From a virus: a DNA stretch of 38,569 bases. The stretch's first letter is position 1. The number at the start of each line of letters is the position of its first letter. The notes beneath the pieces were generated by a model. The model saw nothing but the letters and a program-made list of their open reading frames with translations. It had not been told where the DNA came from and made no database searches. The position numbers were made by a program, and so were the translations under genes. Below, piece after piece: positions 1-38,569 of the stretch. The stretch covers positions 1-38,569 of the IMG/VR virus record IMGVR_UViG_3300032017_000003, one strand, 5' to 3'.

Positions 1-210
1 CGCTCAGGTTGGCGCCGCTCAGGTTGGCGTCGCTCAGGTTGGCGCCGCTCAGGTTGGCGTCGCTCAGGTTGGCGCCGCTCAGGTTGGCGCCGCTCAGGTT
101 GGCGTCGCGCAGATAGGCGTCGCGCAGGTTGGCGTCGCGCAGGTTGGCGCCGCTCAGGTTGGCGTCGCTCAGGTTGGCGCCGCTCAGGTTGGCGCCGCTC
201 AGGTTGGCCT
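1..210. repeat. tandem 15-nt repeat array, 14 units (plus-strand consensus CGCTCAGGTTGGCGY)
   Basis: Units start at 1, 16, 31 ... 196. The only variants are CGCGCAGGTTGGCGY and CGCGCAGATAGGCGT. The array is contiguous, has no spacers and is in frame with the minus-strand CDS. Confidence 0.97.
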
Positions 211-328
211 TGACGGAAACGGCTTGCTCCAGCGCATGGCGCATCGCCAGCCCGCTTTCGAGTCCGTCCGGCACCTCGCATTCGAACAGTACGGCCAAGG
301 TGTAGCGATTCAGGATCTGTTGCTTCAT
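1..328 (-). CDS. pentapeptide-repeat protein, 5' part (ATG at 328, open through position 1, continues at 38569)
   Basis: Minus strand from 328 reads [40 protein letters not shown], then 14 consecutive A(N/Y)L(S/R)(G/D) units. There is no stop before the window edge. 328 nt equals 109 codons plus 1 nt. Confidence 0.85.
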
Positions 329-375: not shown

Positions 376-567
376 TCAGGCGTTCCCGGTAGCCTTGGCA
401 ATTGCCACGCGAACGTCTGAAAGGAGCGTGCGGAGGATGCTGTCGGCATGATCAGGGTTCGATGCGATGAACCAGTCCAGTCGGCGCTCAACCGTAACTA
501 GCTGCTTGAATATGGCCGAGCTTTCCGGGCGCCACGCTTCCGGGGTATTTGCAGTGCTATTGCTCAT
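376..567 (-). CDS. hypothetical early protein (63 aa)
   Basis: ATG at 567 is preceded by GGAG (minus strand ACGGAGATTGAAATG). It lies on the same strand and in the same operon as its neighbours. Confidence 0.6.
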
Positions 568-619: not shown

Positions 620-991
620 TCAGAAGTTGAAGCGCACTTCGCTCATGGTGCGCGCGAAGATTCCGTCATACAGCGGGCGGTCAGCAATTGCCCACACGCC
701 GGTTTCGCGGTTGTACGGGAGGTACGTGCCGCCTTGCTTCTTGTACTCGGTGCGCGCGATGTGATGAGCGCATGCAACCTTGGATTCGAAGCGGCTGATT
801 GCTGCCTTCACTTCCTTGTCGACTGCGAAGCCCTTCGCCGGCTTCGTTGCGCACACGGTGCCGAAGTGGTTCACCTCATCGGTTTCGGTGTCACGGATGA
901 ACACGACGCGCTTCAGGCCAGTCTTGCCACAGCAGCCGCAGAAATCCAGGCTTTCGCTGACTTCGACGACTTGGTAGCGGTTGGTGTTCAC
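620..991 (-). CDS. hypothetical Cys-rich early protein (123 aa), first gene of the leftward arm
   Basis: GTG start at 991 has GGAG about 7 nt upstream. The protein has a CGCCGK...C...C cysteine cluster. No family recognised. Confidence 0.65.
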   Translation of the reverse strand: MNTNRYQVVEVSESLDFCGCCGKTGLKRVVFIRDTETDEVNHFGTVCATKPAKGFAVDKEVKAAISRFESKVACAHHIARTEYKKQGGTYLPYNRETGVWAIADRPLYDGIFARTMSEVRFNF

Positions 992-1027: not shown

Positions 1028-1056
1028 ATCATAGACTTCCTTTTGCAGTTGTGCAA
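1028..1056 (-). promoter_or_regulatory. candidate sigma70 leftward early promoter
   Basis: The minus strand reads TTGCAC, a 17-nt spacer, then TATGAT (-35 at 1056..1051, -10 at 1033..1028). This is about 30 nt upstream of the GTG at 991. Confidence 0.55.
1043..1056. promoter_or_regulatory. operator-like palindrome O1 (TTGCAGTTGTGCAA)
   Basis: Perfect TTGCA/TGCAA arms around a 4-nt core. It overlaps the -35 of the leftward promoter. Confidence 0.5.
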
Positions 1057-1125: not shown

Positions 1126-1305
1126 ATGAACACAGACAAGGCAATCAAGCTCTCTGGTGGCGGGACTCCTGGTCGCAAGGCGCTTGCCGCGCTGCTGGGG
1201 GTCACATCGCTTGCAACCTACAGATGGAAACCGGACATCCCCGATCGCCATGTGTGGCGCCTGCAGGTGCTGAAGCCCGAGTGGTTCAAGGAGAAGCGCT
1301 CATGA
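1126..1305 (+). CDS. Cro/YdaS-like small HTH DNA-binding protein (59 aa, below the ORF-track cutoff)
   Basis: My own translation is MNTDKAIKLSGGGTPGRKALAALLGVTSLATYRWKPDIPDRHVWRLQVLKPEWFKEKRS. The pattern is a G..ALA..LGV....Y.W helix-turn-helix. It is the first gene of the rightward arm, and its stop overlaps the next ATG. Confidence 0.65.
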   Translation: MNTDKAIKLSGGGTPGRKALAALLGVTSLATYRWKPDIPDRHVWRLQVLKPEWFKEKRS

Positions 1306-2501: not shown

Positions 2502-2503
2502 CG

Positions 2504-2884: not shown

Positions 2885-2891
2885 ATGTGAC

Positions 2892-2921
2892 TTGCCAAAA
2901 TGGGCGGTACCGGAAAATAAT
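2892..2921 (+). promoter_or_regulatory. candidate sigma70 promoter (TTGCCA, 18 nt, AATAAT)
   Basis: It sits in the 67-nt gap between the HNH gene and the Fis-type gene. Confidence 0.4.
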
Positions 2922-2951
2922 GGCGCCGCATCCCACAACAAACACCGGATC

Positions 2952-6839: not shown

Positions 6840-6850
6840 TCGGAGCAACC

Positions 6851-9707: not shown

Positions 9708-9778
9708 ACTCGCGCCACCGCTGAGCATTCGAGCGTCCAGCAGCTCCCGTTCCACGTGAAACCCGTGGGGAGTTGAGC

Positions 9779-18342: not shown

Positions 18343-19141
18343 CTCTCCGGTTCCGCGCCTGATCACGCGCGACAAGCTGCAGCGCATCCTGAAGGATCAC
18401 GAGCTTGTCGTCGCCTTCGAGAATTTGCTCAGCCAGGCGGGCACGGTCACGCCTGATGCAGTTGCCGCCGCGCAGGCTTCAGCCGATGCGGCGCAGGCCT
18501 CCGCAAATGCGGCTCAAGCGACCGCCACCGCAGCCGCTTCAAGCGCATCCGCTGCCCAGTCAGACGCGAACGCCCTGAAGATTCCTTCGTACGTTTCTCT
18601 CGCGGCATCGCCGACGCTCTCAAATGAGCGCGTGCTCGCGGTGGGTCCAGGCCTATCGCTCGTTGACGGTGGCGCCGGCGCCGCGGTGACTCTGGATCGC
18701 TCCGACTTGATCAGCGTACTCGGCGGCGATGTCTCTGATTCGACTGGCGCCTTCGTCAACGCCGCGGGGCTGTCGCTGACGCTCGCCGCCAACGCCACCT
18801 ACCTCGTCGACGGGCTGCTGGCGTTTCAGTCGGCGGCCACCACCACCGGCTTGGCGCTGACCTTCACGCTGCCGGCCGGCGCATCGATCGTTGGCAGCTA
18901 CAACCACAACACCACCGCTACCGCGATCGAGGGCAGCTACAACAACGCGGCAGGCGCTGTCGGGGGCAACACCAGCGCAGCCGCAGCTGCCGCCGCAAAT
19001 CTGCCGATCAATGGACGCTGGATCATTGCGACTGGCGCGACCGCTGGCGCAGCGCAACTGCAGTTCAGGACTGAGGTGGCAGCCTCCGCAGTGACGCTCA
19101 AGGCAGCGCTTTCGGCGCTGATCGCCACCCGGCTGGTCTGA
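18335..19141 (+). CDS. tail needle / fibre-like protein at the gp26 position (268 aa)
   Basis: GTG start with GAGG upstream. An Ala/Gln-rich coiled-coil segment is followed by a beta-rich C-terminal domain. Confidence 0.5.
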   Translation: MASSPVPRLITRDKLQRILKDHELVVAFENLLSQAGTVTPDAVAAAQASADAAQASANAAQATATAAASSASAAQSDANALKIPSYVSLAASPTLSNERVLAVGPGLSLVDGGAGAAVTLDRSDLISVLGGDVSDSTGAFVNAAGLSLTLAANATYLVDGLLAFQSAATTTGLALTFTLPAGASIVGSYNHNTTATAIEGSYNNAAGAVGGNTSAAAAAAANLPINGRWIIATGATAGAAQLQFRTEVAASAVTLKAALSALIATRLV

Positions 19142-27925: not shown

Positions 27926-28344
27926 GCCCGTGGGCCATCCTTGCCGCCGTGCTAGCCCTCAGCGGGGCGCTGGGCGCGTCGTACGTGCAGGGCCGCAGGG
28001 ATGGCAGCTCCGCGGTGATCGCGAGCCAGGAGAAGGCCAGGATAGCAATTGAGTCAGCAGCCTCCGCCGAGCGCGCCAAGAACGCTGCCAACACCTTCCG
28101 CATTCAGGAGAACCGCGATGCAGAGAACATCCGTACTGGCGACCAGCTTGCTGATGCTTTGCGCCGGCTGCGCGTCAGTTCCTCAGTGCGCCCCGCAGCA
28201 GTTCCAGCGTCCGGTGCTGGGGCCTGTCCCGACCGAGAGCTACCTGTCGAGAATCGAGAAGCTCTGCTGCGAATCGGTGCTGAAGCCGACAGACTCCGCT
28301 CCGATTACAGAGCGTGCCGCGAGTTCGTCGACTCGCTGAATTGA
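27922..28344 (+). CDS. i-spanin (Rz-like, 140 aa)
   Basis: GTG overlaps the endolysin stop. It has an N-terminal TM segment (WAILAAVLALSGALGASYV) and a charged helical periplasmic part. Confidence 0.75.
   Translation: MSPWAILAAVLALSGALGASYVQGRRDGSSAVIASQEKARIAIESAASAERAKNAANTFRIQENRDAENIRTGDQLADALRRLRVSSSVRPAAVPASGAGACPDRELPVENREALLRIGAEADRLRSDYRACREFVDSLN
28118..28339 (+). CDS. o-spanin (Rz1-like lipoprotein, 73 aa), fully embedded in the +1 frame of the i-spanin gene
   Basis: MQRTSVLATSLLMLCAGC is a lipobox-like signal. The mature part is Pro-rich. Confidence 0.7.
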   Translation: MQRTSVLATSLLMLCAGCASVPQCAPQQFQRPVLGPVPTESYLSRIEKLCCESVLKPTDSAPITERAASSSTR

Positions 28345-28352
28345 AGATGGTG

Positions 28353-28372
28353 GGCGGAGATGATCCCGCCTT
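28353..28372 (+). terminator. weak candidate terminator after the lysis cassette
   Basis: GGCGG, 8-nt loop, CCGCC, then TT only. Confidence 0.25.
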
Positions 28373-28801
28373 CGACCTTCACCGGTTACTACCCGGCTAG
28401 TCATGTCTTGGTTGATGGGGGCATGACTCCCTCGTTCCATGTGGCCTAGTCGGCAGCCACTCACCGCGCATCATCACTGCGCACGCCTCACCACGCTAGG
28501 TGGATTGACTTGGCGCCACACCAGTCTTTCGGTAGTGCGGAACCTATCACCATCACGACTGCTCCCTTGTGCCTAAGCCTAGAGGCTGTGCAGTGTTCCA
28601 AGAAGCATGCGTGATGGCCCAAGCCTTTCAGCTTGGATGCCCCTCTACGCTCGGGGTGGCAATGGCGACAAGGAATTCGAAGGGTCGTTACTTTACAAAA
28701 TGTAGACCCGACAAGCATTCGCCAAGACACGATGATAGCTGTTGATCACTTCACACATCGCGTTTCGCCGGAATTTCACCGGCTCATCAGTTGGCTTGCA
28801 T

Positions 28802-28820
28802 GCCGCAGGTCCGCTGCGGC
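28802..28820 (-). terminator. candidate terminator hairpin of the leftward arm
   Basis: GCCGCAG, 5-nt loop, CTGCGGC, starting 7 nt after the stop at 28827. There is no U tract. Confidence 0.3.
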
Positions 28821-28826
28821 GCCGGT

Positions 28827-29114
28827 TCAGTCGAACTGATACGGCCCCTGCCGGCCCAGCGCAGTCTTGTCCAGGAACCACGGGTGAGCCAGCGCGATGC
28901 GCAGCGCTTCCCGCTGGTTCGGCATGTCGTTCAGCCGGTTGACGAGTTCCTGGCATTCGCGGAGCGGCTCCCGCGGTGCAAGGTTGCCGACGTTCCAACC
29001 GCACTTCGGGCCGCAGGCCTGGAAGCCGCCAAGCTCGTGCCGCACGAACTGAGGCATGTACCAATCGGTGTCGCGCTGCATGCGTGCGAGATCGCTGGCG
29101 TCAGAGGCTCCCAT
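28827..29114 (-). CDS. hypothetical protein (95 aa), last gene of the leftward arm
   Basis: ATG 29114 overlaps the upstream stop (TGATG), with GAGGGG upstream. Confidence 0.55.
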   Translation of the reverse strand: MGASDASDLARMQRDTDWYMPQFVRHELGGFQACGPKCGWNVGNLAPREPLRECQELVNRLNDMPNQREALRIALAHPWFLDKTALGRQGPYQFD

Positions 29115-29374
29115 CACCACCCCTCGAATTCAGGAAGCCGCTCGAACTGGCGGCGGGTCATGCGCACCTCGGTGACGATGTAGGTGGCGTCATCTTCGGC
29201 GCCATCGCGCATGTCGGGCACATCGTGCAACTCGCAGATGCACCAGGAGCCGTCCAAATCAATGCGCACGAACGTCTCGCGGCGGCCGAACAGCGCGTCC
29301 CACCAGTCGGCCCAGGTGCAACGGGCCTCTTCGAGCACGTGGCCCGGCTTCCACCATTGAATGCTGTTGCTCAC
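29114..29374 (-). CDS. hypothetical Trp-rich acidic protein (86 aa)
   Basis: GTGA coupling at 29374. Confidence 0.55.
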   Translation of the reverse strand: MSNSIQWWKPGHVLEEARCTWADWWDALFGRRETFVRIDLDGSWCICELHDVPDMRDGAEDDATYIVTEVRMTRRQFERLPEFEGW

Positions 29375-29916
29375 GGCTTCTCCTTGGTCATGGCTGCGGC
29401 CAAGTGGTACATCTCGTTCAATGCGCCCCGCACGCGACGAAGCGACTGCATGCCATCGCCGGTTCGGCGACAGATTTCATTGAGAACGCGCATATCTACG
29501 TCAGCCTGAGAAATCAGCTCGCCTCCGATACTGGAAAGTACGACGTATTTGACCGCCTCGGGGTGCATCGATCTAGCACGCCCCGCATCCTTCCTCGCCT
29601 CCTCCAGCTCAGCAGCGAGTCGTGCCACTTCCGTCTCCAGCCGGTCTACGGTGTTCTCGCGCTCGGCAAGGGAGGTGGTGAGGCAGGAGATTTCGGCGGC
29701 CCCGTTCTCGGCGAAAGCTTTCATCGCTGCGAAGTCGTCGCCAGCTTGCTTGAACTGCTCGACGAGGTAGGTGAACAGCGCCGTGTGTGCCGCGACGCTT
29801 TCCTGCCCTCGGTCGCTCTCTTCTTCGAGGCCCTGCAGCGTCTTGTGCACGTGGTGCGCACGTGTCGCCAGCTTGTGTAGCCTCATCGCTTCCACGACTC
29901 TCGGATCAGTGCTCAT
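29371..29916 (-). CDS. hypothetical coiled-coil protein (181 aa)
   Basis: ATG 29916 overlaps the upstream stop (ATGA). Confidence 0.6.
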   Translation of the reverse strand: MSTDPRVVEAMRLHKLATRAHHVHKTLQGLEEESDRGQESVAAHTALFTYLVEQFKQAGDDFAAMKAFAENGAAEISCLTTSLAERENTVDRLETEVARLAAELEEARKDAGRARSMHPEAVKYVVLSSIGGELISQADVDMRVLNEICRRTGDGMQSLRRVRGALNEMYHLAAAMTKEKP

Positions 29917-30239
29917 GAGCGTGGCTCCTTCCACGCTCTGTCGAAGTCCGCCATGGCGAGCGCCGGGGACTTGCCGAAGCCTGCGACACCATCCTGCAGG
30001 TTTTCTCCGTACAGAGCACACCACTGATCGCCGTCAATGCTTAGCGCAGGGCGGTAGATTGTGCTCGGCGCCGTCATGGCGTTGCCGATGTCCCATGCCG
30101 CTTGCTGAGCCGCGCTCTTGACCTGTTCGCATGCGTTGCCGATGGCGTCTCGCGCAACGTCTGCCACGGCAGAACCGATGTCTCCATTGCTGATGCGGCT
30201 GCGAACAGCGTCGTAGGTGGCTTGATACGAATCACTCAT
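29913..30239 (-). CDS. hypothetical protein (108 aa)
   Basis: ATGA coupling at 30239. Confidence 0.6.
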   Translation of the reverse strand: MSDSYQATYDAVRSRISNGDIGSAVADVARDAIGNACEQVKSAAQQAAWDIGNAMTAPSTIYRPALSIDGDQWCALYGENLQDGVAGFGKSPALAMADFDRAWKEPRS

Positions 30240-30442
30240 GATTGGGGCTCCTGCTTGGTGGTGGCAATGGCTGCGGGCGGGATCAGCCGGCCGTCCCAAT
30301 CGCCGCCGGGTGACGGGAACGTGCTGCCGGTGCACCATTTCCAGCCGCCCTCGACGCGCTCCCAGTGACCTCCGCCGAAGGCTGGGGCTCGCGTGCCGAG
30401 CGGCGCGTTCGCGAGCGTCAGCGGCGTGTGCTGCTCAGCCAT
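30236..30442 (-). CDS. hypothetical Gly/Trp-rich protein (68 aa)
   Basis: ATG 30442 overlaps the end of the upstream gene by 8 nt. Confidence 0.5.
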   Translation of the reverse strand: MAEQHTPLTLANAPLGTRAPAFGGGHWERVEGGWKWCTGSTFPSPGGDWDGRLIPPAAIATTKQEPQS

Positions 30443-32285
30443 TGAGTTTCTCCTGAGCTGCGGCCAGGATGGCGCCGCGAGCGGCATGCGCCTTGGCGTA
30501 AGCCTCGCTGGCAAGCCGGCGCACAACCTCTACGGCAATCAAGCCGTCGTCTTGCTCATCGCATTCCTGCAGCAACCTGTGCAGCGGGTATGCGGCCACG
30601 TCCATGTTTCCTGCCAGTGCCTTCCATTCCGAGACTTCGGACTGGAGCCCCTCGATGAATTCGGCCTGCCGCTTAATTTGTGCATCCTTCTCATCGCTCA
30701 GCTCCGCATCCCGGGCGGGAGTGGTGGCGAGACTGAACTCTGCTCGCATGTCGTTCGCGAGCACGGGGTGGGTGGCTTCGACAGCGTCGGCGTAAGCGGT
30801 CAGCGCCACCGCGGCGTGCCTGTCGTGACCCACGTCGAGAACGAAGTATCGGCAGTCGTGGTGCTTGCCGCCCGGCTCCGAGCTGCCGTCCGTGCGTCGC
30901 ACGTCGAACTTCCGATACAGGCCCTGCTGTTCATCCGGCTTCGAGGCATCGTGTTCTGGCGGTTCGGCGCTCGGCTCGGCCGGCACCTCAACCTGCTTAC
31001 GTTCGTCAGCGACCTCGTTCAGCTTCTCGGCGAGAAACCCGAACTCCGAGTCGGTGTATTCGGGCTGGTCGTCATCAGTCGCAACCGATGCCGTCTGGGC
31101 CGTCTCCGATGCGGCACGGAGCGCAAGCAGGTCAGCAGTCTCAACCGGATGCCTGAAGCCGCTGTGCGGCCCTTCGGAGGGGCACCCAAGTTCGTCATGC
31201 TGGCCTCTGCACGCCTCGGAGCAGAAAGCCTCTTCGTCCGGGTAGTCGCCACCGATCCATCCCTCGCCATTGACGTGCAGCTTTCCGCAGTTTGCGCACC
31301 GCAACTCGAATGCGCTCTCCGTCTCGGCTGCAGTCAAGGTGGCGACCTTCTGGCACTCCTGCAGGCACCGCGCCCAGCCTTCGGCATAGCCGTCCTCGAA
31401 TAGAATCGGCGACTGGCCTTTGTTGGGCGGCATCTCCGGCCACCCATCCGTCTCCGATGCGGTCAGGCCGTTGAGCATCGGGGCGGCGGGTGCTGCGGCA
31501 AGCATGGCGCGCCAGTCACGGACACATGCAATCCGCGCATGCGCCGCTTCTCCGGCGTATCCGCAGGCTGCCATCATTTCCAGTGTCGGCTCCGCCGGCA
31601 CCAGCCTCCAGCCCTGCGGGATCGCCACCGGCTGCGCAGCGGGTGCGGGGTGGGCGCCGGGAGCGGCGAGTTCCGTCACAACGAACCCGAGTTCGCTCAG
31701 CATTTCGCGAGGCCACACCTCTGGGTCTTTTGCGACGATCGAACGAGCCAGCTCGCGCAGTTCCTTGGATCGCACAGCATCCCCAGCGGTCTCGGCCCCC
31801 ATCGCATCGCTCTGGTCCTGCATCACATCGTGATGATCGGCAAGCGCGAGGAGACATGCCGGGTTTTCCATCAGCGCACGCTGCTCGAAGATTCCAAGCG
31901 GGCCTGCTGCCGGGCTGGGTGCTGCGGCTGCCCTGAAAAGTTCGTCGTACTTGGCATACAGCTTCGCCACATCACGCAGCGCAAGGGTGTCGTAGTCGGG
32001 GTGGATGCTGTCACCCTCTTTCCAGTAGCCGCTTGCCGCCGTGCTGATGCTGGCCATCTGCATGCGGTACTGCTCGATGCTGTCCAGCGTTGGGGGTGCT
32101 GCGGCTGCAAGAGCAGCGCGGAGGAGTTCGTCAGCCGCCTGGCGGATTGTCAGCACCTTCTGCATCACGGGATCGCGCGGCAGAACGTCGTCGTCGCACT
32201 GCCTGTCGGTCTGCTGCAGCATCACCAGATCGGACAGTGCCACGATGATAGTGCTGTACTGCGCGCGGGCTTCGGTTGTGCTCAT
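30435..32285 (-). CDS. large mosaic early protein (616 aa) with a C-x2-C-x21-C-x3-C zinc ribbon
   Basis: AAGGA lies 9 nt upstream of ATG 32285; the track start at 32294 abuts the ribosome-binding site. Several globular segments are separated by Ala/Pro linkers. Contains CANCGK...AFCSEAC. Confidence 0.7.
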   Translation of the reverse strand: MSTTEARAQYSTIIVALSDLVMLQQTDRQCDDDVLPRDPVMQKVLTIRQAADELLRAALAAAAPPTLDSIEQYRMQMASISTAASGYWKEGDSIHPDYDTLALRDVAKLYAKYDELFRAAAAPSPAAGPLGIFEQRALMENPACLLALADHHDVMQDQSDAMGAETAGDAVRSKELRELARSIVAKDPEVWPREMLSELGFVVTELAAPGAHPAPAAQPVAIPQGWRLVPAEPTLEMMAACGYAGEAAHARIACVRDWRAMLAAAPAAPMLNGLTASETDGWPEMPPNKGQSPILFEDGYAEGWARCLQECQKVATLTAAETESAFELRCANCGKLHVNGEGWIGGDYPDEEAFCSEACRGQHDELGCPSEGPHSGFRHPVETADLLALRAASETAQTASVATDDDQPEYTDSEFGFLAEKLNEVADERKQVEVPAEPSAEPPEHDASKPDEQQGLYRKFDVRRTDGSSEPGGKHHDCRYFVLDVGHDRHAAVALTAYADAVEATHPVLANDMRAEFSLATTPARDAELSDEKDAQIKRQAEFIEGLQSEVSEWKALAGNMDVAAYPLHRLLQECDEQDDGLIAVEVVRRLASEAYAKAHAARGAILAAAQEKLNG

Positions 32286-32304
32286 GGTGGTCATTCCTTG
32301 GTGG

Positions 32305-32601
32305 TCAGGAGAACATGCACAGGCAGTCGAACTCGGCGCTGTACCGGATGCCGCATCGCACGAGGTCGCGCAGCTGATCGTCTGTCACGACCTCATTCAA
32401 CTTGTCGCAGTCGACGCCGAGGTAGAACTCGTCATGCTCCGACGCGGTGATGATGTCTCCCGAGAGGTCGGGCAGCAGATCGGCCAGCATGAGGAATGCG
32501 CACAGGTCGGCGCAGCGGTGGCGAGGCGATTCGATGCCGTCGAAGTCGAGGTAGTCTTCATCGAATGCGTCGATGCGTTCTTCAAGAGTGCGGGTGCTCA
32601 T
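32305..32601 (-). CDS. hypothetical strongly acidic protein (98 aa)
   Basis: ATG 32601 has GAGG upstream. By my count it has 16 Asp plus 8 Glu against 8 Arg/Lys. Confidence 0.6.
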   Translation of the reverse strand: MSTRTLEERIDAFDEDYLDFDGIESPRHRCADLCAFLMLADLLPDLSGDIITASEHDEFYLGVDCDKLNEVVTDDQLRDLVRCGIRYSAEFDCLCMFS

Positions 32602-32730
32602 GGTGGTGGTCCTCAGGTAGTAGGTCGCCGTCCCCCGCGCAACCGGGGCTATTGCGCTCCGTCCCCTCACCCCGATTCCCCGGGAAGATGGAGCGCTCAC
32701 GTGGCTTCACGGACAGCGGGTGATCTTGGG

Positions 32731-33465
32731 TCAGCGGTTGTCGTCAAGACTCCCGTCGTCGTATTCCTGCGCGAAGCTCTCGACCAGCCGAGCATTGAAT
32801 GCGTCATCGCTCTTGTCGTACAGGATCTGCTCAAAGAACACATCCGGCTTCGATTCGAGCAGGAAGTGCGTCGCGCAGGTCCATGCCTTCGCTTCGTCCT
32901 TCGCCTCGGGTGTCATGCGTTCGCTGCGGTCGATCGCCGCGAGGTGCGGGCACTTGCGGCATTCCTGTCCGAGCGCACACCTCAGATGATTGTCGACAAG
33001 TTTCGTCGCCGGCCGCGGATCATGTCCGCACATCTTGTAAGAATCCGGCATGCCGCGCTCGCGCTCGTACTGGAACAGCAGCACCATGCGCGGAACCTCG
33101 TCGCTGATCTTCATGGCCGCATACATCATTCGCGGCCATTCAGGCTGTTCGCCCGGTGGCGTCGCGGTGCGCAGTCGATCTCCTTCTGCATTGCAGGCTG
33201 AATGCCATGCGTTGTCGCCACAGCCTCGCTGATCGGTGCCTCGGTTGGCGCGCTCCAGTCGCATGCCGCGCATATACATCGCGCCTTCCTTCAGCTGCTC
33301 AAGCATGTTGCCGCGGTCGTGTGCGTAGCGACGCAGATGAATGCCAGCCCATAGGCGATCCTTCTGCTCCGGCGTCATCTTGTCTTGGTCCATGCCGGCC
33401 CAGCGCCACAGCTCCTCGTGGTCGATGCGGTTTGCCAGTGCTTCAAGCTCTTCGGGCTTCGCCAT
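32731..33465 (-). CDS. hypothetical protein (244 aa)
   Basis: ATG 33465 is preceded by GGAGAG. The N-terminal extension in the track has low third-position GC. Confidence 0.65.
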   Translation of the reverse strand: MAKPEELEALANRIDHEELWRWAGMDQDKMTPEQKDRLWAGIHLRRYAHDRGNMLEQLKEGAMYMRGMRLERANRGTDQRGCGDNAWHSACNAEGDRLRTATPPGEQPEWPRMMYAAMKISDEVPRMVLLFQYERERGMPDSYKMCGHDPRPATKLVDNHLRCALGQECRKCPHLAAIDRSERMTPEAKDEAKAWTCATHFLLESKPDVFFEQILYDKSDDAFNARLVESFAQEYDDGSLDDNR

Positions 33466-33479
33466 GTTCTCTCCGTTGC

Positions 33480-33614
33480 TTAGGCCTTCGGGCCATGTTG
33501 ATGTTCTCTCGCTCGCCGAATCTGGCGAATGAGCCATTGCATGCCAAGCCGCTTCAGCTTCTCCCACTCGGGTGTGGGGATGCGGATTGATCTCGGGTTG
33601 TCGCGTTTTTCCAT
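33480..33614 (-). CDS. small basic protein, ribbon-helix-helix-like (44 aa, not in the ORF track)
   Basis: My own translation is MEKRDNPRSIRIPTPEWEKLKRLGMQWLIRQIRRAREHQHGPKA. Third-position GC is about 66%, against about 47% for the overlapping tracked frame. The start lies 6 nt after the candidate -10. Confidence 0.45.
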   Translation of the reverse strand: MEKRDNPRSIRIPTPEWEKLKRLGMQWLIRQIRRAREHQHGPKA

Positions 33615-33620
33615 TCGAGT

Positions 33621-33649
33621 ATGGTAGTACAGAACGTACTACACAGCAA
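33621..33649 (-). promoter_or_regulatory. candidate internal leftward promoter (TTGCTG, 17 nt, TACCAT)
   Basis: -35 at 33649..33644 and -10 at 33626..33621 on the minus strand, in the 92-nt gap after recT. Confidence 0.45.
33624..33642. promoter_or_regulatory. operator-like perfect palindrome GTAGTAC-N5-GTACTAC
   Basis: It has 7-bp arms, fills the promoter spacer and overlaps the -10. Confidence 0.55.
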
Positions 33650-33706
33650 GGACTTTTTACTCAGGCTCCGACCACTCGACGCCACGCTCTGCGCCGAATG
33701 CGGAGA

Positions 33707-34636
33707 TCAGGCATTGGGCCAGCGCTTGTCGAAGACCTTCAGCAGGTCTTTGTACTGATCGGGAGGCAGCACTTCCTGCGCTTCGTCCAGCACGAAGGCG
33801 GCCGGCTCTTGCGCGGTGGCGTTGTTGATCTCGTCGGCGAACTGGGCGTAGGTCTTGCCGCCGCCTTCGGTGATCTCGCCCGTCTCCTCGTCGACAACGC
33901 GCACCATGTCGCCTTCGATGATCGCGCCCTTGCCGGACTCGGCCGCGTGCGAAACGTCGATCGCGTTCGCGAGCTCGATGCTGGCCGGCATGTACTTGAG
34001 CACCTGCAGCAGCGCTACCTTGCGGGCGTACATCTCGAAGTTGTTCTCGCTCTCGTTGGCGTAGTGCCGGCCGCCGACCTTGTTGTACTGCTTCAGGTGC
34101 TTCGCGACCTTGGCGCGCGTCCAGACCTCGATGACGGCCATGCTCGCATCGCGCACCCGGCCGATGGCATACACGTGCGTGAACTGGTCGCCGCCCTCGC
34201 CGTCGCCCGGAACGTGCCGGCAGAACGGCGAATCGCCCAGCTGGTACTCGAACTTGTCGCCCGGGTACACGACGCCCGTCCAGACCGTGGCCCGGCCGCT
34301 GCGCGCGACCAGGTCGACAAGGCCCTTCCAGCCCGGCACGAAGGTGCAAGTCTGCTTGTACGGGATCAGGTAGCCCTGGCCGTTGATGCCGGGCTCCAGG
34401 CCCAGCTGCGCGGCCGTCATGATGGAGCCGGCGATGCTCTGCGGTGAGCACTGCTGCAGCGCCGGCGTGGTGCTGAAGGCGGTCAGCGCGAGCCGCGCCA
34501 TGCGGTCGGCGTTCATGTGCTTCGGTAGCGCCAGCGCGAGCTGCGGCTTCAGCTTGTCCATGAAGCCGGAGAACTTCGCCAGGGGGGTTTCTTCTTTGCG
34601 GCCGGTCACGGCGGCCTTGAGTGCGTTGGAGGACAT
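33707..34636 (-). CDS. recT: RecT-family single-strand annealing recombinase (309 aa)
   Basis: AAQLGLEPGINGQGYLIPY...GWKGLVDLVARSG...VYPGDKF is the RecT family pattern. It is paired with an upstream exonuclease. Confidence 0.85.
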   Translation of the reverse strand: MSSNALKAAVTGRKEETPLAKFSGFMDKLKPQLALALPKHMNADRMARLALTAFSTTPALQQCSPQSIAGSIMTAAQLGLEPGINGQGYLIPYKQTCTFVPGWKGLVDLVARSGRATVWTGVVYPGDKFEYQLGDSPFCRHVPGDGEGGDQFTHVYAIGRVRDASMAVIEVWTRAKVAKHLKQYNKVGGRHYANESENNFEMYARKVALLQVLKYMPASIELANAIDVSHAAESGKGAIIEGDMVRVVDEETGEITEGGGKTYAQFADEINNATAQEPAAFVLDEAQEVLPPDQYKDLLKVFDKRWPNA

Positions 34637-34640
34637 GGGG

Positions 34641-35624
34641 TCAGGGGCCTTTCTTCTTCAAGCGCATGACGCGCGTGGTTGTGTAAACGGTGAACTTGGC
34701 GGCGATTTCGGGTTCTGCCTCGGCAAGGGCTTTCCCATCCAGGCGGCTCGCGCTCTGCTTCTTCCACGTGGCAATTTCCTTGCCGCCGCTGGTCAGGATG
34801 GAATGCGGGCTGATGAACTCGCCGATGGTGAACTGCAGGTCTTCGGCCTTCTCGACGAGGGTCTTGATCTCGGATTTCAGCGCGGCCAGCGCGTCGACCT
34901 TTCCCGCAATCTCGGGCGTGGCTTCGACCGCCGTGCCATCGTCAGTCGGGAAAAGTGCCTTGATGTCATCGAACACCATCGGGTCCGGCGGCACGTCGGC
35001 CACGACGTGATTGATCCAGAAGTCGACCAGCCGAGGCCGCATGCCGGCGATCGTCTCGTCGTCGCGCACCGTCCAGTAGATGTCGACATCGTCGAAGCTG
35101 CGCAGCGCCGCGACCAGGCAGTAGCGCCGGCCGGTGACCATCAGCCCGTGCATGAACTGGGCCGCGTACTCGATCGGCACGTCCTCGGTGTTCTCGGTGC
35201 CCCACTTCTTGCGCGCGAAGCCGGTGACGCTCTTGGCGTCTGCGTTCACGTGCTCGCCGGCGAACTCGACCATGTTGAAGCCGATCATCAGCTTGCCGGT
35301 AAGCCGCAGCTCGAAGTCGATCTCGCAGGACAGGAAGCCGTGCTCGCTGTCGATGTAGCGCGCGTTGCAGTCCAGCAGTTCGACCTCCATGCCATCGGCG
35401 CGGAGCTTGTCGATCACCATGTCGCGAATGAACGGCTCCAGACGGTGGCCGCGGTCGAAGCGCTTCAGCTGCGCAGCGTCTGGCAGCGGCTTGGACTTGC
35501 GGCCGGTCTTCTCGAGCCACAATTCGACGGGCGTTGCCCAAGGACTCAGCCCCATCACGGCAGCGGCATCGCTGCCGCCGAGGAACTTCGAGCGGTCGTG
35601 TTGAATCGTTGCGATGTCGGTCAT
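34641..35624 (-). CDS. YqaJ-type (lambda-Exo-like) recombination exonuclease (327 aa)
   Basis: ATG 35624 has GGAAGGA upstream. FLGGSDAAAVMGLSPWATPVELWLEKTG is the YqaJ N-terminal signature. Confidence 0.8.
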   Translation of the reverse strand: MTDIATIQHDRSKFLGGSDAAAVMGLSPWATPVELWLEKTGRKSKPLPDAAQLKRFDRGHRLEPFIRDMVIDKLRADGMEVELLDCNARYIDSEHGFLSCEIDFELRLTGKLMIGFNMVEFAGEHVNADAKSVTGFARKKWGTENTEDVPIEYAAQFMHGLMVTGRRYCLVAALRSFDDVDIYWTVRDDETIAGMRPRLVDFWINHVVADVPPDPMVFDDIKALFPTDDGTAVEATPEIAGKVDALAALKSEIKTLVEKAEDLQFTIGEFISPHSILTSGGKEIATWKKQSASRLDGKALAEAEPEIAAKFTVYTTTRVMRLKKKGP

Positions 35625-35737
35625 GGGTTCCTTCCGGATTTCTGTGAGAGGTCCGCTGCAGAGCTGAAGCGCCGTGAAGGCTTTTGCGCCTGCGAAGCAA
35701 GAGCAAACAGCCGATTTAGAGAGTGTCAGGGGCGTTT

Positions 35738-35962
35738 TCAGTTGGGCGAATGTTGGTGAGCACTCGCGTTCGATACGAGGCGCAGATTCGCTCGCAATCG
35801 GCCTGTGGAATTTTGTGCTGCACCCACTTGACAAGGAGAATCTGGGTTCTCCGAGTAAGTGAGCGGACGCTTGCGTTCCATTCCGCGCCATTCATAGGGC
35901 CACATTCCCGACACGTCGTGTACGGTATTGGCGACCCAGATGCGGAAATGCAGGTTGTCCAT
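35738..35962 (-). CDS. doubtful small ORF (74 aa); only the first 40 or so codons look coding
   Basis: ATG directly follows the upstream TGA. Third-position GC falls from about 16/20 to about 6/20 after position 35850, where the +1 frame becomes the GC3-rich frame. Confidence 0.3.
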   Translation of the reverse strand: MDNLHFRIWVANTVHDVSGMWPYEWRGMERKRPLTYSENPDSPCQVGAAQNSTGRLRANLRLVSNASAHQHSPN

Positions 35963-36091
35963 TCAATCCTCCCAAGGTGTTGGCGCACACAGCCAATCCC
36001 ACAGCGCCCGCCAGAAGCCAGGCTTCGTGCCGTTCACCTCGTCCCGGTGGCGCGCGTGGCGGGCTTCGTCGGCTGCGGGGGCGGGGGTCAT
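35963..36091 (-). CDS. hypothetical small protein (42 aa, not in the ORF track)
   Basis: ATGA overlap with the upstream gene at 36091. My own translation is MTPAPAADEARHARHRDEVNGTKPGFWRALWDWLCAPTPWED. Confidence 0.4.
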   Translation of the reverse strand: MTPAPAADEARHARHRDEVNGTKPGFWRALWDWLCAPTPWED

Positions 36092-36363
36092 GCTTCAGCC
36101 TTCACGAGTTCGGCGCGGCGCTTCTGCATCACGGCCAGTTGCTTGTCGAGCCGCACCTTTTGCAGGTTGAGTTGGTTGTGGCCTGCGGTGATGGCGTCGC
36201 TTCGGGTCGCGTGGATTGCGCTGAGCATGTAGTACTTGCCGGCGTCCGTGATGTCGCCATGATCACCAGACCATGAGCCGTAGTTCTTCACGAAGGTGAC
36301 CTTCTTCAGCTTGAAGGACGGCAGCAGAACCCAGCCGTCGTAGGGGTACGTGCGTTCGCTCAT
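36088..36363 (-). CDS. hypothetical protein (91 aa)
   Basis: ATGA coupling at 36363. The longer tracked ORF is an Arg/Pro-rich shadow. Confidence 0.6.
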   Translation of the reverse strand: MSERTYPYDGWVLLPSFKLKKVTFVKNYGSWSGDHGDITDAGKYYMLSAIHATRSDAITAGHNQLNLQKVRLDKQLAVMQKRRAELVKAEA

Positions 36364-36713
36364 TGCTCCTCCATGGTTGCGATGTCCTCCGCCCGTTCCG
36401 CGTACTGCGACGCGGCCAGCAGGCGCCACGATGCGACCTCGCTGCATTCGGAGTGCTGGAGGACGTTGACCAGCGCCCGCCACAGCGCACCGTCCGGCGC
36501 GTCCAGCAGGTCGTGCAGGCTGTCGATCAGCGACAGCTCGACCAAGTCTGCGCGGCCATCGGGATGCGGCAGGCTGAACGCGCGCAGCTTGCCCTCGCCG
36601 TTCGCCATCGCCGCCAGTAGCTCGATCTTCAGAGCATCCCGAAGCACCTCGATTCGCTCGCGCTGCAGGCGGTTGCGCTCGGTGTCGGCGTCGGCGCGAT
36701 CCAGCGGATTCAT
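36360..36713 (-). CDS. hypothetical protein (117 aa)
   Basis: ATG 36713 is preceded by GGAGG. An alternative ATG at 36755 would be ATGA-coupled to the HNH gene and would read through a C9 tract. Confidence 0.6.
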   Translation of the reverse strand: MNPLDRADADTERNRLQRERIEVLRDALKIELLAAMANGEGKLRAFSLPHPDGRADLVELSLIDSLHDLLDAPDGALWRALVNVLQHSECSEVASWRLLAASQYAERAEDIATMEEQ

Positions 36714-36751
36714 GCGGCCTCCTGGGGGGGGGAGGCGGTAATCGAAATGGT

Positions 36752-37270
36752 TCATATCGTGCATCCTTCGTGAAGCAGCCGCTTGGCTGCGATGTATGCG
36801 GCGTGCGCCGCATCTGCGGTAGCGAAATAGCCGAGGCACTTTTTCTTGCCGGCTGTTGTGATCTGCGCCATGTAGCGAGCCCGAACCCTTCCGGGAATCA
36901 GCGTCACGCCGAGGAATCCAGAGGCGTTGTTGGCTTGCGCTGAGCGCCTGTTCTGGAGGTTCACACTCTGGTTCACGCCCCTCAGGTTCAACCATGCGTT
37001 GTTCGACGGATTGGTGTCGATGTGATCAACCTGATCCGATGGCCATTCGCCGTTGACCCACAGGAAAGCGAGCCGATGCGCCCAGTAGTCGCGTGCATCC
37101 ACCGAGATCTGCACGTAACCACTTTTCTTGATGGATCCTGCTAAGTCGCCCGGGTGGCAGTGCCCGGCCCTGACCAACCGCGTGAATTGGCCGGTTTCCT
37201 TGTTGTACGACAGAAGCTCCCGCAGGCGAGTCGCCGTCAGCTCCGGAGCCATATCAGTCGGTCGACCCAT
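36752..37270 (-). CDS. HNH (HNH_3-type) endonuclease with an AP2 DNA-binding domain, homing-endonuclease-like (172 aa)
   Basis: VDHIDTNPSNNAWLNLR plus GFLGVT...RYMAQITTAGKKKCLGYFATADAAHAAYIAAK. Confidence 0.8.
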   Translation of the reverse strand: MGRPTDMAPELTATRLRELLSYNKETGQFTRLVRAGHCHPGDLAGSIKKSGYVQISVDARDYWAHRLAFLWVNGEWPSDQVDHIDTNPSNNAWLNLRGVNQSVNLQNRRSAQANNASGFLGVTLIPGRVRARYMAQITTAGKKKCLGYFATADAAHAAYIAAKRLLHEGCTI

Positions 37271-37728
37271 CAGAACCTCGCCTCCATACTCAGGTGCAGT
37301 ACGGTCCGCGATTTCACCAAGTGACCCGGCACCAGCGTGAGCCGAGGCGTGACGCCCATCACTTGCACAGGCGACGCGATGGACAGGGCGGACAGCGGGC
37401 CGAAGTAGCCCCGCGACCAGCCCTCACCGTTCTTGCGCTGATACGAGCCGATGACCCCGAGCGTCAAGTTGACAGGCCCGTAGAGGCTGAATGTCTGCCC
37501 GATGTACGGCGCATTCCTGCGGATCGTGCTGCGGTACATGCCGATCGTCAGGCCCGTCTCGGTGCGCACATACAGACCCCAGTTCTGATTCGAGTCGCTC
37601 TCCTTCGCCGGCACGTGCACCGAGTGGACATGCAGCCCGACGGTCAGCGGCTCGGCGTGCGCGCACATGCCAAGCCCGATGCCGACCAGCACGAGGCACA
37701 GGACGGCGAGAATGCGGTGCGGATTCAT
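37270..37728 (-). CDS. secreted small outer-membrane beta-barrel-like protein (152 aa)
   Basis: Signal peptide MNPHRILAVLCLVLVGIGLGMCAHA|EP. The pattern alternates between hydrophobic and polar residues, and the C-terminal residue is Phe (..MEARF). Confidence 0.6.
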   Translation of the reverse strand: MNPHRILAVLCLVLVGIGLGMCAHAEPLTVGLHVHSVHVPAKESDSNQNWGLYVRTETGLTIGMYRSTIRRNAPYIGQTFSLYGPVNLTLGVIGSYQRKNGEGWSRGYFGPLSALSIASPVQVMGVTPRLTLVPGHLVKSRTVLHLSMEARF

Positions 37729-37967
37729 GATTGCCCCTCCAGTTGATCAAACCCCGTGATCGCCTCGCCGCTGAACCGCCGATCCTTCGCCTTGTGCGCG
37801 CGCAGGATCAGCATGTTCTTCGTGGCGTCGTCTGCGCTCACGATGGCGGCACGGATGTCGGCTGCGGCACGCGCATGCCAGTCGCGATCCTTGATGTTGC
37901 AGATCTCCGATTCGGTCTCGTGTCGTTGCGCAAGCATGCTCAGCCTCATTGCGAGTTCGGGGCTCAT
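37725..37967 (-). CDS. hypothetical protein (80 aa)
   Basis: GAAGGAAA ribosome-binding site upstream of ATG 37967. ATGA-coupled to the next gene. Confidence 0.6.
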   Translation of the reverse strand: MSPELAMRLSMLAQRHETESEICNIKDRDWHARAAADIRAAIVSADDATKNMLILRAHKAKDRRFSGEAITGFDQLEGQS

Positions 37968-37985
37968 GGCGTTTCCTTCGGTAGA

Positions 37986-38569
37986 TCAGTAGGCTTCAGC
38001 CTCGGCCTTGGTGATGAAGAAGTGGATGCCTGGTGCGCATTCCTCTTGCCAGTCCTCGCTGAACGAATTCGGCTTGACGCGCTGGCCGACACGGTATTCC
38101 GTCTTGTCGTCGTGACGGCTGATAGCGACTTCTGCGCCGATGATCTCCAGCACGTCGGCGAACTCTGCTCGGCACTTGCGGCCGAAGGCATGCGAGCGTT
38201 TCGCTTCTTCAGGAATGCGCAGCTTCACGATCACGTTGTTATTGCATTTCTTCCAGCCGATCAGCGAACCCTCCGGGAGGATGCGGGTCGCTGCAATGGC
38301 CAAATCAGCATCCTTGGCGCCGCTCAGGTTGGCGCCGCTCAGGTTGGCGCCGCTCAGGTTGGCGTCGCTCAGGTTGGCGCCGCTCAGGTTGGCGTCGCTC
38401 AGGTTGGCGCCGCTCAGGTTGGCGCCGCTCAGGTTGGCGTCGCGCAGATAGGCGTCGCGCAGATAGGCGTCGCTCAGGTAGGCGTCGCGCAGGTTGGCGT
38501 CGCGCAGGTTGGCGTCGCGCAGGTTGGCGCCGCTCAGGTTGGCGTCGCTCAGGTTGGCGCCGCTCAGGT
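37986..38569 (-). CDS. pentapeptide-repeat protein, 3' part: repeats plus a 105-aa globular C-terminal domain (stop at 37986..37988)
   Basis: The frame is open from 38569 down. It reads 17 A(N/Y)L(S/R)(G/D) units, then [60 protein letters not shown]...[14 protein letters not shown]. Confidence 0.85.
38316..38569. repeat. tandem 15-nt repeat array, 16 full units plus 9 nt, same family as 1..210
   Basis: Units start at 38321, 38336 ... 38546, with a partial unit at 38561..38569. Variants include CGCGCAGATAGGCGT (twice) and CGCTCAGGTAGGCGT. Confidence 0.97.

What the first reader, a model, noticed from the sequence alone, without database searches (positions are those of the whole stretch)
37986..38569. 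About 30 near-identical pentapeptide units encoded by a DNA-level tandem array, fused to a globular C-terminal domain: candidate DNA-mimic effector
Together with 1..328, this gene encodes roughly 300 aa. It has a 40-aa N-terminal cap, about 30 consecutive A(N/Y)L(S/R)(G/D) units, and a 105-aa C-terminal domain (GWKKC...KCRAEFA...GIHFF). Pentapeptide-repeat proteins such as Qnr and MfpA form right-handed beta-helices that mimic B-DNA and act on gyrase; that is established knowledge. What is unusual here is the near-perfect 15-nt periodicity at the nucleotide level, with only 5 unit variants. There is also a higher-order duplication: the block [15 protein letters not shown] occurs in both halves. 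This points to recent expansion by slippage or recombination, and probably to variable copy number. The gene is the third gene in the leftward arm, so it is likely made immediately after infection. That is where anti-restriction and host-takeover functions usually sit. From memory, the C-terminal module resembles the DUF5758-type domain found attached to pentapeptide repeats in phages and giant viruses. Its function is unknown. I infer a DNA-mimic anti-defence or topoisomerase-targeting effector whose length is tunable.
Basis: partly seen in the sequence, partly recalled or inferred. Interest (0 to 1): 0.75.

Follow-up and report, generated by a model that had tools for sequence, protein, structure and literature searches.

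The report
Phage pentapeptide-repeat protein with DUF5758 tail
This is an ordinary member of a widespread but uncharacterised phage early-gene family: a pentapeptide beta-helix rod fused to a DUF5758 domain. The "about 30 repeats" is probably a double count caused by overlapping contig ends, and nothing tested here supports a DNA-mimic role.

Summary
The gene is real. An independent circular MEGAHIT contig of the same phage carries it intact, as a 225-aa protein.

"About 30 units" is doubtful. Window 1-189 and 38336-38569 are redundant copies that differ by one 45-nt indel. The array is therefore more likely 15 or 18 units than 29-30.

The homogeneous 15-nt periodicity is typical of the family, not unusual. 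Copy number ranges from 1 to 34 among relatives.

The gene is third in the leftward early arm of a P22-like phage, upstream of RecE/RecT. Relatives occupy early regions in lambdoid and T7-like phages.

The repeat region is predicted to be a quadrilateral beta-helix. It fails the Qnr and MfpA family cut-offs. Its surface charge is weak and not conserved across the family.

The DUF5758 model has no PDB match. In other viruses the domain sits on other repeat scaffolds (MORN, HEAT, LRR).

Verdict: a new member of a known family of unknown function. The DNA-mimic reading is not supported.

The parts
37986..38569 (-). 3' part of the PRP-DUF5758 gene as it lies in the window (stop codon 37986-37988)
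   Evidence: Translation. The same gene is intact and internal in L005/P0121.
37998..38273 (-). DUF5758 domain (PF19062), aa 206-297 of the 300-aa reading
   Evidence: Pfam E=8.6e-24, 84 bits vs cut-off 26.9. AF2 model pLDDT 81.7, pTM 0.75. No PDB match. BFVD matches to DUF5758-type domains in phages and giant viruses.
37989..38318 (-). C-terminal non-repeat part ([11 protein letters not shown] capping helix plus DUF5758), 110 aa
   Evidence: helix 119-124 of P0121 followed by a beta-rich domain.
38319..38569 (-). Array copy attached to the C-terminal domain: 16 full units plus 11 nt (…LSG, SD, SG, RDx3, YSD, YRDx2, SG SG SD SG SD SG SG SG)
1..208 (-). Array copy attached to the N-cap: 13 full units plus 13 nt (SG SG SD SG RD RD YRD SG SG SD SG SD SG ANLS)
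209..328 (-). N-terminal cap, 40 aa ([40 protein letters not shown]). Predicted as a beta-hairpin plus helix. ATG at 326-328.
   Evidence: Conserved in homologues.
1..127 (.). Exact duplicate of 38336-38462. This is terminal redundancy of the contig, and this closure gives the 15-unit, 38,335-nt circle.
38336..38462 (.). Second copy of window 1-127
38463..38569 (.). 107-nt branch beyond the 127-nt duplicate. Its last 74 nt (38496-38569) equal 116-189. It implies a 3-unit insertion allele ([15 protein letters not shown]) or a longer array.
1028..1055 (-). Only sigma-70-like promoter match in 1-1400, upstream of the first leftward gene
   Evidence: a consensus match only.
620..991 (-). First leftward gene, 123 aa, Cys-rich, no family match
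376..567 (-). Second leftward gene, 63 aa, no family match
1126..1305 (+). Cro-like first rightward gene (59 aa), divergent from the leftward arm
   Evidence: Precomputed Pfam P22_Cro (faint) on the identical gene in L005. Translation.
33707..35891 (-). RecT (33707-34636) and RecE/YqaJ-like exonuclease (34641-35891), downstream in the same leftward arm
   Evidence: PHROG 148 at 1e-56 and PHROG 434 at 4e-68. Pfam RecT and YqaJ.

Best explanation
The feature is one gene of a complete, circularly closed P22-like phage genome. The linear contig happens to be cut inside it.

Anatomy. The gene encodes a three-part protein:
- a 40-aa cap;
- a right-handed quadrilateral beta-helix built from near-identical pentapeptides;
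- a conserved about 95-aa C-terminal DUF5758 domain.

Its coding array is a true 15-nt DNA tandem repeat. Such arrays are kept homogeneous and change length by replication slippage or unequal recombination (inferred from the sequence pattern). That explains three things: assemblies break or overlap there, array length differs between assemblies of this same phage, and length ranges from 1 to 34 units among relatives. In this phage the array is most likely 15 or 18 units, not about 30.

Function (inferred, not shown). I take it to be a non-essential early protein expressed from the leftward early operon that acts on the host, in take-over or counter-defence. The strongly conserved DUF5758 head carries the activity. 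It has invariant basic residues and a conserved Cys/His set. The beta-helix serves as a rigid scaffold or binding surface that tolerates changes in length.
For: Identity and architecture:
- Pfam Pentapeptide at 4.8e-56 plus DUF5758 at 8.6e-24.
- AF2 pLDDT 88.4, with PDB matches at 0.4-0.8 A rmsd to Np275 and to synthetic pentapeptide solenoids.

Gene continuity and circle:
- L005/P0121 and the 141-nt overlap.

Terminal redundancy and alternative closures:
-. Only the 225-aa form is on record.
- A third assembly (Logan SRR9032267) stops 28 nt into the array.

DNA-level concerted evolution:
- All units that encode the same peptide are identical in DNA, here and in nearly all of 76 relatives. The family median of mean pairwise unit identity is 0.90, against 0.91 here.
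- Codon choices differ between lineages.

Length variation:
-, including long-read MAGs with 13-26 units.
- About 17 of 80 IMG/VR contigs end inside the array.
- Published precedent: P22-like phages L and ST64T differ by one 15-bp unit in the early-left-operon gene orf232 (PMC8022706).

Early position:
- Third leftward gene, upstream of HNH, RecE and RecT.
- Upstream of ERF and integrase in L001 and L002.
- After the repressor in Rhizobium phage RHph_TM3_3_14B.
- Upstream of the RNA polymerase in the Autographiviridae phage BOESR1.

DUF5758 as the constant part:
- 70-85% identity among relatives whose caps and arrays differ.
- 19 invariant residues, including K, R, S, R, K, R, Y, E, C, H.
- The same fold sits on MORN, HEAT, RING or LRR modules, or stands alone.
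Against: - No experiment or characterised homologue exists. No paper in the library mentions DUF5758.
- The DUF5758 model has no PDB neighbour (best E 1.7), so 'activity' is only an inference from conservation.
- Expression timing is inferred from gene order and one consensus promoter match.
- The 15/18-unit reading rests on overlap logic and on one MEGAHIT contig. That contig could itself be a collapse across the 127-nt repeat.
- PADLOC and NCBIfam gave nothing for the neighbours, so there is no guilt-by-association with a named anti-defence gene in this phage.
Confidence: 0.5

Rival explanations
1. First reader's reading. The beta-helix is a B-DNA mimic. The protein is an anti-restriction, anti-RecBCD or gyrase/topoisomerase-targeting effector, and its length is tuned by copy number.
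For: - The predicted fold matches MfpA, Qnr, AlbG and EfsQnr.
- MfpA acts as a T-segment mimic (review PMC10886550).
- The window's array is acidic: pI 4.1, net -7.
- The gene sits where Ocr sits in T7-like phages (BOESR1). An analogous PRP sits next to ral in ST64T.
- The phage has RecE/RecT but no recognised Gam/Abc2-type RecBCD inhibitor.
Against: - It fails the Qnr and MfpA model cut-offs by a wide margin.
- The array is uninterrupted, so there are no Qnr-type loops (0% indels).
- The C-terminus carries DUF5758 instead of the dimerisation helix that review PMC10886550 describes for this class.
- Charge density is about -0.23 per unit. Across 228 homologues the median is -0.07, and 29% are net positive.
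- Copy number is not held to whole coils, so geometry is not conserved.
- DUF5758 also rides on MORN, HEAT and LRR scaffolds, which are not DNA mimics.
Confidence: 0.2
2. The window is right as a single molecule. The gene really has one array of 29-30 units or more, made of two higher-order copies of about 14-15 units. The 15-unit MEGAHIT version is then an assembly collapse, or a deletion allele, across the 127/142-nt internal repeat.
For: - All closures are in frame.
- The window's C-side carries units (AYLSD, three ANLRD in a row) that are absent from the 15-unit contig.
- Arrays of 29-34 units exist in complete genes of relatives.
- Internal higher-order duplications occur in homologues such as P0132.
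- MEGAHIT reuses contigs from lower k, where a 127-nt repeat would collapse (established behaviour of iterative de Bruijn assemblers).
Against: - The end-to-start overlap is only 9 or 24 nt, against 127 and 74 nt for the redundant-ends reading.
- Each end nearly spans a whole array and stops 17-19 nt short of the opposite unique flank (my count from the unit layout).
- The 127-nt closure reproduces the independently closed 38,335-nt circle exactly.
- The 295-aa and 300-aa products are not on record.
- Arrays of 29 units or more are rare in the family, about 5-8%.
Confidence: 0.3
3. The protein serves the lysogen or the resident phage. It would be a superinfection-exclusion or defence protein in which the pentapeptide domain senses an invader. 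Precedents are the pentapeptide-containing Hailong HalA and other accessory genes of the early-left region, such as sieB.
For: - Many homologues lie in bacterial chromosomes, presumably in prophages.
- Relatives sit just downstream of repressor genes.
- HalA appears among weak structural matches (rank 49).
- PMC13586616 describes a pentapeptide-bearing defence protein.
Against: - No PADLOC hit.
- This phage shows no recognisable repressor or integrase next to the gene.
- A member lies in the early region of a T7-like phage.
- No membrane or effector domain was detected.
Confidence: 0.1

Closest known systems
Pfam architecture Pentapeptide (PF00805) + DUF5758 (PF19062) in phages and prophages. 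Examples: Rhizobium phage RHph_TM3_3_14B EVB67_031, Ralstonia phage BOESR1 HIBIKMCM_00009, and the 'pentapeptide repeat protein' of about 150 Mycobacterium phages.
   Same: - The same three-part architecture, with a C-terminal DUF5758 domain 50-78% identical.
- A DNA-level 15-nt array: 27.9 copies at 85% and 19.3 copies at 86%.
- Location in an early or accessory region.
   Different: Only the cap variant, the unit sequence and the copy number differ. None of these proteins has a known function, so membership explains nothing about mechanism.
Orf-232 of P22-like phages ST64T and L (early left operon)
   Same: - The host phage is P22-like.
- It is the third gene of the early left operon (24, ral, orf-232).
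- It has a cap, about 15 near-identical pentapeptides encoded by an 89%-identical 15-nt array, and a globular C-terminal domain.
- A one-unit copy-number difference between near-identical phages is published (PMC8022706).
   Different: The C-terminal domain is unrelated. Pfam finds no DUF5758 and hhalign gives probability 0.3%. This is an analogue in architecture and position, not a homologue of the whole protein.
Qnr / MfpA / AlbG / McbG topoisomerase-protecting pentapeptide proteins
   Same: Right-handed quadrilateral beta-helix. With 29-30 units it would have about 7 coils, close to the coil count I recall for an MfpA monomer (not checked here). With 15-18 units it has about 4. Structural matches.
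   Different: - Far below the family score cut-offs.
- No loops, and no C-terminal dimerisation helix (replaced by DUF5758).
- Perfect DNA-level repeats. From memory (not tested here), qnr and mfpA genes have degenerate repeats without DNA-level periodicity.
- Weak charge that is not conserved.
DNA-mimic early anti-restriction proteins (T7 Ocr, ArdA)
   Same: Early-region position in the T7-like relative. Mildly acidic array in this phage.
   Different: No sequence or fold relation. Charge density is far lower than that of Ocr-type mimics, and it is not conserved in the family.
DUF5758-type domains of giant viruses (Mimivirus, Klosneuvirinae) fused to MORN, RING or pentapeptide modules, or standing alone
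   Same: The same predicted fold: BFVD TM 0.64-0.78, E down to 2e-8. The domain is C-terminal.
   Different: The partner domains differ and the hosts are eukaryotic. Sequence identity is only 16-34%.

Membership tests
Pentapeptide repeat proteins (PF00805, Rfr fold) | Tandem A(D/N)LXX units scoring above the Pfam gathering threshold | tested here: met
   186.3 bits vs cut-off 20.2.
Pentapeptide repeat proteins (PF00805, Rfr fold) | Right-handed quadrilateral beta-helix with four units per coil | tested here: met
   In prediction only. AF2 pLDDT 88.4. Foldseek rmsd 0.4-0.8 A over 72-77 residues to Np275 and to synthetic pentapeptide solenoids.
DUF5758 (PF19062) | Score above the gathering threshold, with the domain at the C-terminus | tested here: met
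   84-87.6 bits vs 26.9, aa 206-297 of 300. All 147 best representatives match the same model.
Qnr family | NCBIfam NF033086 score at or above the curated cut-off | tested here: not met
   36.4 bits vs 240.
Qnr family | Loops A/B interrupting the beta-helix | tested here: not met
   The array is uninterrupted, with 0% indels.
MfpA family | NCBIfam NF000349 score at or above the curated cut-off | tested here: not met
   40 bits vs 360.
Qnr/MfpA/AlbG class | C-terminal helix mediating a tail-to-tail dimer | tested here: inconclusive
   A short helix (aa 119-124 of P0121) follows the array, but DUF5758 comes after it. No multimer prediction was available.
Qnr/MfpA/AlbG class | Binding to gyrase or topoisomerase IV | not testable with these tools
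   Needs biochemistry or complex modelling.
DNA-mimic proteins (Ocr, ArdA, MfpA-like surface) | Dense, conserved negative surface charge imitating the phosphate backbone | tested here: not met
   Net -7 over 150 aa here. The family median is -0.07 per unit and 29% of arrays are net positive.
P22-like early-left-operon pentapeptide gene (ST64T/L orf232) | Pentapeptide array encoded by 15-bp DNA repeats in an early-left-operon gene of a P22-like phage | tested here: met
P22-like early-left-operon pentapeptide gene (ST64T/L orf232) | Homologous C-terminal domain | tested here: not met
   Pfam finds no DUF5758 in Orf-232. BLASTP E 0.005 over 65 aa at 26% identity, and hhalign probability 0.3%.
Known anti-phage defence proteins (PADLOC-DB) | Match to any PADLOC model | tested here: not met
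   No hit at E<=0.1 for the protein, its C-terminal domain or five neighbours.

The most novel reading that the evidence does not exclude
DUF5758 is the constant working head of a new class of early viral host-manipulation proteins. It is delivered on interchangeable solenoid scaffolds: pentapeptide, LRR, HEAT and MORN, in phages and in giant viruses. In phages the pentapeptide scaffold would be encoded by a contingency-type tandem repeat. Populations would then carry rods of different length (15, 18 or more units in this one phage) that adapt reach or avidity to variable host targets or defences.
Probability: 0.15. Interest if true: 0.7.

Novelty: new member of a known kind. Interest (0 to 1): 0.3.

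Why it matters
For this window, the main value is a correction. The contig ends are redundant, so the '30-unit, 300-aa' protein is probably a 225-240-aa protein. Its features are normal for its family.

At the family level there is a modest lead:
- The domain is large and completely uncharacterised, with about 4,900 clusters at 50% identity.
- It sits in the early, host-interaction regions of unrelated phage types.
- Its repeat module evolves by unit gain and loss without synonymous drift.
- Its repeats regularly break metagenome assemblies, and they can produce misleading terminal overlaps.

If the function were found, it would annotate thousands of phage and prophage genes.

Tried and rejected
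- Direct concatenation of the window ends gives an out-of-register 'DLS' unit, so the ends do not simply abut.
- Megablast of 25 kb against cultured phages found only a 171-nt portal match. There is no close cultured relative.
- A literature search for DUF5758 found 0 papers. Searches on phage pentapeptide proteins gave no functional study, only the L/ST64T note.
- PDB sequence searches with the domain and with its profile gave nothing significant. Foldseek of the DUF5758 model against the PDB gave best E 1.7. It returned several Sm/SH3-like small barrels at probability <0.1, which I do not count as evidence.
- PADLOC gave nothing for the protein or its neighbours. NCBIfam gave only sub-threshold pentapeptide-family matches for the protein and nothing for its C-terminal domain or the neighbours.
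- Exact-pattern scans found no hit for the variant block [15 protein letters not shown], for the cap-array junction, or for the array-linker junction in IMG/VR and JGI metagenomes. No further independent assembly of this array could be obtained.
- Exact look-up of the 240-, 295- and 300-aa closure products found them absent.
- I considered a tail-fibre or structural role because of PHROG 'tail fiber' hits. I rejected it because those hits cover only the repeats and the gene lies in the early arm.
- I considered a CI-like repressor upstream, which would make this an immunity-region gene. I did not support it: the first leftward gene has no HTH or family match.

Full report
**1. What is in the sequence**

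Both ends of the window lie inside a 15-nt tandem array. TRF reports 1-208 (13.9 copies, 92% matches) and 38314-38569 (17.1 copies, 93%), with no indels.

On the minus strand the left end reads ATG (326-328), then a 40-aa cap, then 13 full pentapeptide units plus 13 nt. The right end reads 11 nt plus 16 units, then a 110-aa non-repeat tail ending at the stop codon 37986-37988.

There are five unit types:

| Peptide | DNA |
|---|---|
| ANLSG | GCCAACCTGAGCGGC |
| ANLSD | GCCAACCTGAGCGAC |
| ANLRD | GCCAACCTGCGCGAC |
| AYLRD | GCCTATCTGCGCGAC |
| AYLSD | GCCTACCTGAGCGAC |

Every peptide type has exactly one DNA form. Only the outward-facing positions vary.

**2. Is it one gene?**

Yes. A MEGAHIT contig from ENA sample ERZ27256939 (k141_1560672, 38,476 nt) is the same phage.
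- It is 100% identical over window 1-10328. It has 9 mismatches over window 27986-38543, which I assign to the array.
- In it the gene is internal and intact. The product P0121 is 225 aa, with the same cap and the same C-terminal domain but 15 units.
- Its two ends overlap by exactly 141 nt inside the coat-protein gene. It is therefore a closed circle of 38,335 nt.
- A third assembly of the phage (Logan, run SRR9032267, 38,163 nt) stops 28 nt into the array.

**3. How many units?**

But window 1-127 is identical to 38336-38462, and 116-189 is identical to 38496-38569. So 1-189 and 38336-38569 are two copies of the same stretch that differ by a single 45-nt (3-unit) indel.

Four in-frame closures are possible:

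| Closure | Overlap | Units | Protein | Note |
|---|---|---|---|---|
| A | 127 nt | 15 | 225 aa | Circle of 38,335 nt, exactly the MEGAHIT circle |
| B | 74 nt | 18 | 240 aa | A plus [15 protein letters not shown] after unit 6 |
| C | 24 nt | 29 | 295 aa | |
| D | 9 nt | 30 | 300 aa | |

- A 127-nt terminal duplicate followed by a 107-nt branch looks like a k=127 de Bruijn loop edge plus an unresolved alternative edge. This is my inference.
- Only the 225-aa product is on record among 15 billion proteins.
- I put about 0.65 on 15 or 18 units and about 0.3 on 29 units or more.
- Either way, the 107-nt branch shows a second array arrangement in the source data. It is either a 3-unit indel allele or a longer array.
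- The MEGAHIT version could in principle be a collapse across the 127-nt repeat. Only reads can settle this.

**4. Protein families**

- Pfam gives Pentapeptide (4.8e-56) and DUF5758 (PF19062, 8.6e-24; 87.6 bits for the domain alone against a cut-off of 26.9).
- The PHROG hits are all of unknown function.
- The AF2 model of P0121 (pLDDT 88.4) shows a beta-hairpin plus helix cap, a regular solenoid, a short capping helix and a beta-rich C-terminal domain.
- Foldseek against the PDB returns pentapeptide beta-helices first: Np275 and synthetic solenoids at 0.4-0.8 A rmsd, then MfpA, AlbG and Qnr.
- The DUF5758 model (pLDDT 81.7, pTM 0.75) has no PDB neighbour (best E 1.7) and no sequence match.
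- In BFVD the same fold recurs in phage and giant-virus proteins. There it stands alone or follows HEAT, MORN, RING or pentapeptide modules.
- A full HMMER scan finds 4,902 cluster representatives at E<=1e-3. Of the best 147, 116 carry pentapeptide repeats and one carries LRRs.

**5. Is the DNA-level periodicity unusual?**

Not within this family. I compared 76 relatives with DNA in hand.
- The median of mean pairwise unit identity is 0.90, against 0.91 for the window. In 32% of relatives the array is at least as homogeneous.
- In nearly all of them, units that encode the same peptide are identical in DNA. Codon choice still differs between lineages. That is the signature of concerted evolution by slippage or unequal exchange.
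- Cultured relatives show the same pattern: BOESR1 has 27.9 copies at 85%, and the Rhizobium phage has 19.3 copies at 86%.
- Copy number ranges from 1 to 34 in complete genes. This includes long-read MAGs with 13-26 units, and two Xanthobacter MAGs of one study with 20 and 13 units.
- About 17 of 80 IMG/VR contigs end inside the array itself. The array is a systematic assembly breakpoint.
- A published precedent exists. P22-like phages L and ST64T are more than 99.9% identical, yet they differ by one 15-bp unit in the early-left-operon gene orf232 (PMC8022706).
- ST64T Orf-232 has the same layout and is also the third early-left gene, after 24 and ral. Its C-terminal domain is unrelated.

**6. 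Context**

The window is a complete P22-like podovirus genome.
- It has a large terminase, P22-type portal, scaffold, P22 coat, head-closure and tail genes, a Cro-like gene, a replication initiator and a DnaB-type helicase.
- GC is about 63% and there are no tRNAs.
- The leftward arm starts at a promoter-like site (1055-1028, minus strand). It runs through a 123-aa gene, a 63-aa gene, the PRP gene, 80-aa and 152-aa genes, an HNH endonuclease, small ORFs, a RecE/YqaJ-like exonuclease and RecT. 'Third gene in the leftward arm' is correct.
- Relatives sit upstream of ERF and integrase in lambdoid contigs. They follow the repressors in Rhizobium phage RHph_TM3_3_14B. They sit upstream of the RNA polymerase in the T7-like BOESR1.
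- Early expression is therefore a reasonable inference, not a result.

**7. Mechanism**

The DNA-mimic or gyrase idea does not pass the tests I could run.
- The scores are far below the curated Qnr (36 vs 240) and MfpA (40 vs 360) cut-offs.
- There are no Qnr-type loops, and DUF5758 replaces the dimerisation helix.
- The array has only -7 net charge over 150 aa.
- In 228 homologues, array charge centres on zero: median -0.07 per unit, 29% positive.
- Unit number is not constrained to whole coils.
- DUF5758 also rides on scaffolds that are not DNA mimics.

The part under strong purifying selection is DUF5758. It is 70-85% identical among relatives with different caps and arrays. It has 19 invariant residues, including a basic cluster and a Cys/His set.

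My best reading is an accessory early host-interaction protein. DUF5758 is its working head and the beta-helix is a length-tolerant rigid scaffold or binding surface. The target is unknown. A DNA-mimic role for this particular acidic array remains possible (about 0.2). A defence or exclusion role is less likely (about 0.1; no PADLOC hit).

**8. Verdict**

- The architecture and the early position are confirmed.
- The 'unusual' periodicity and variable copy number are family traits that are already visible in public annotations, and once in the literature.
- The functional inference is not supported.
- This is a new member of a known family of unknown function.

Noticed in passing
window 1-189 and 38336-38569: The contig has imperfect terminal redundancy: a 127-nt exact match plus a 74-nt exact match, separated by a 45-nt indel. 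It lacks a clean direct terminal repeat. Tools that call circularity from exact end overlaps would see only 24 nt here.
   Followed up: yes
L013-L092 (IMG/VR loci): About 17 of 80 viral contigs that carry this gene family end inside the pentapeptide array. Several are about 40-kb contigs that may be complete genomes. The array is a recurrent assembly breakpoint in metagenomes.
   Followed up: partly
window 620-991 (-) and the leftward arm to about 28000: No CI-type repressor, integrase or excisionase was recognised in the leftward arm of this otherwise P22-like genome. The first leftward gene is a Cys-rich 123-aa protein with no family match. Whether the phage is temperate is open.
   Followed up: partly
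window 30435-32294 (-): A 619-aa ORF at the far end of the leftward arm has only a partial PHROG match, to a 'sulfatase-modifying factor enzyme' family (aa 447-520, 2e-20). It has no Pfam hit.
   Followed up: no
window 36752-37270 (-) and about 2504-2884 (+): There are two HNH endonuclease genes, one in each early arm. One matches HNH_3 / PHROG 99. The other matches PF01844 on the identical L005 gene.
   Followed up: no
DUF5758 domain, window 37998-38273 (-); alignments A1 and A3: Conserved residues include Cys in GWKKC, Cys in GRKCRA, and Cys and His in ECxxGIHFF. The Burkholderia multivorans homologue P0183 has lost the first two together but keeps the last two. A metal site or a catalytic Cys/His pair is possible.
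   Followed up: no
L119 and L120 (Xanthobacter MAGs, nanopore-based, same study): The related genes carry 20 and 13 units respectively. This is a copy-number difference between closely related sources, seen in long-read assemblies.
   Followed up: partly
L133, L134, L137 (JGI 3300034670, Logan SRR10849743, SRR24391774): The scaffold protein (L133, L134) and the P22_Tail-4 family protein (L137) of this phage occur with identical sequence in other samples. The phage or very close relatives are therefore not confined to one data set.
   Followed up: no
window 18470-18525: A 21-nt tandem repeat (about 2 copies, 78-82% matches) lies inside ORF 18335-19141 (+).
   Followed up: no
Acidovorax phage ACP17 (BFVD hits): At least four separate proteins of this one phage carry a DUF5758-like fold. 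This suggests paralogue expansion of the domain.
   Followed up: no
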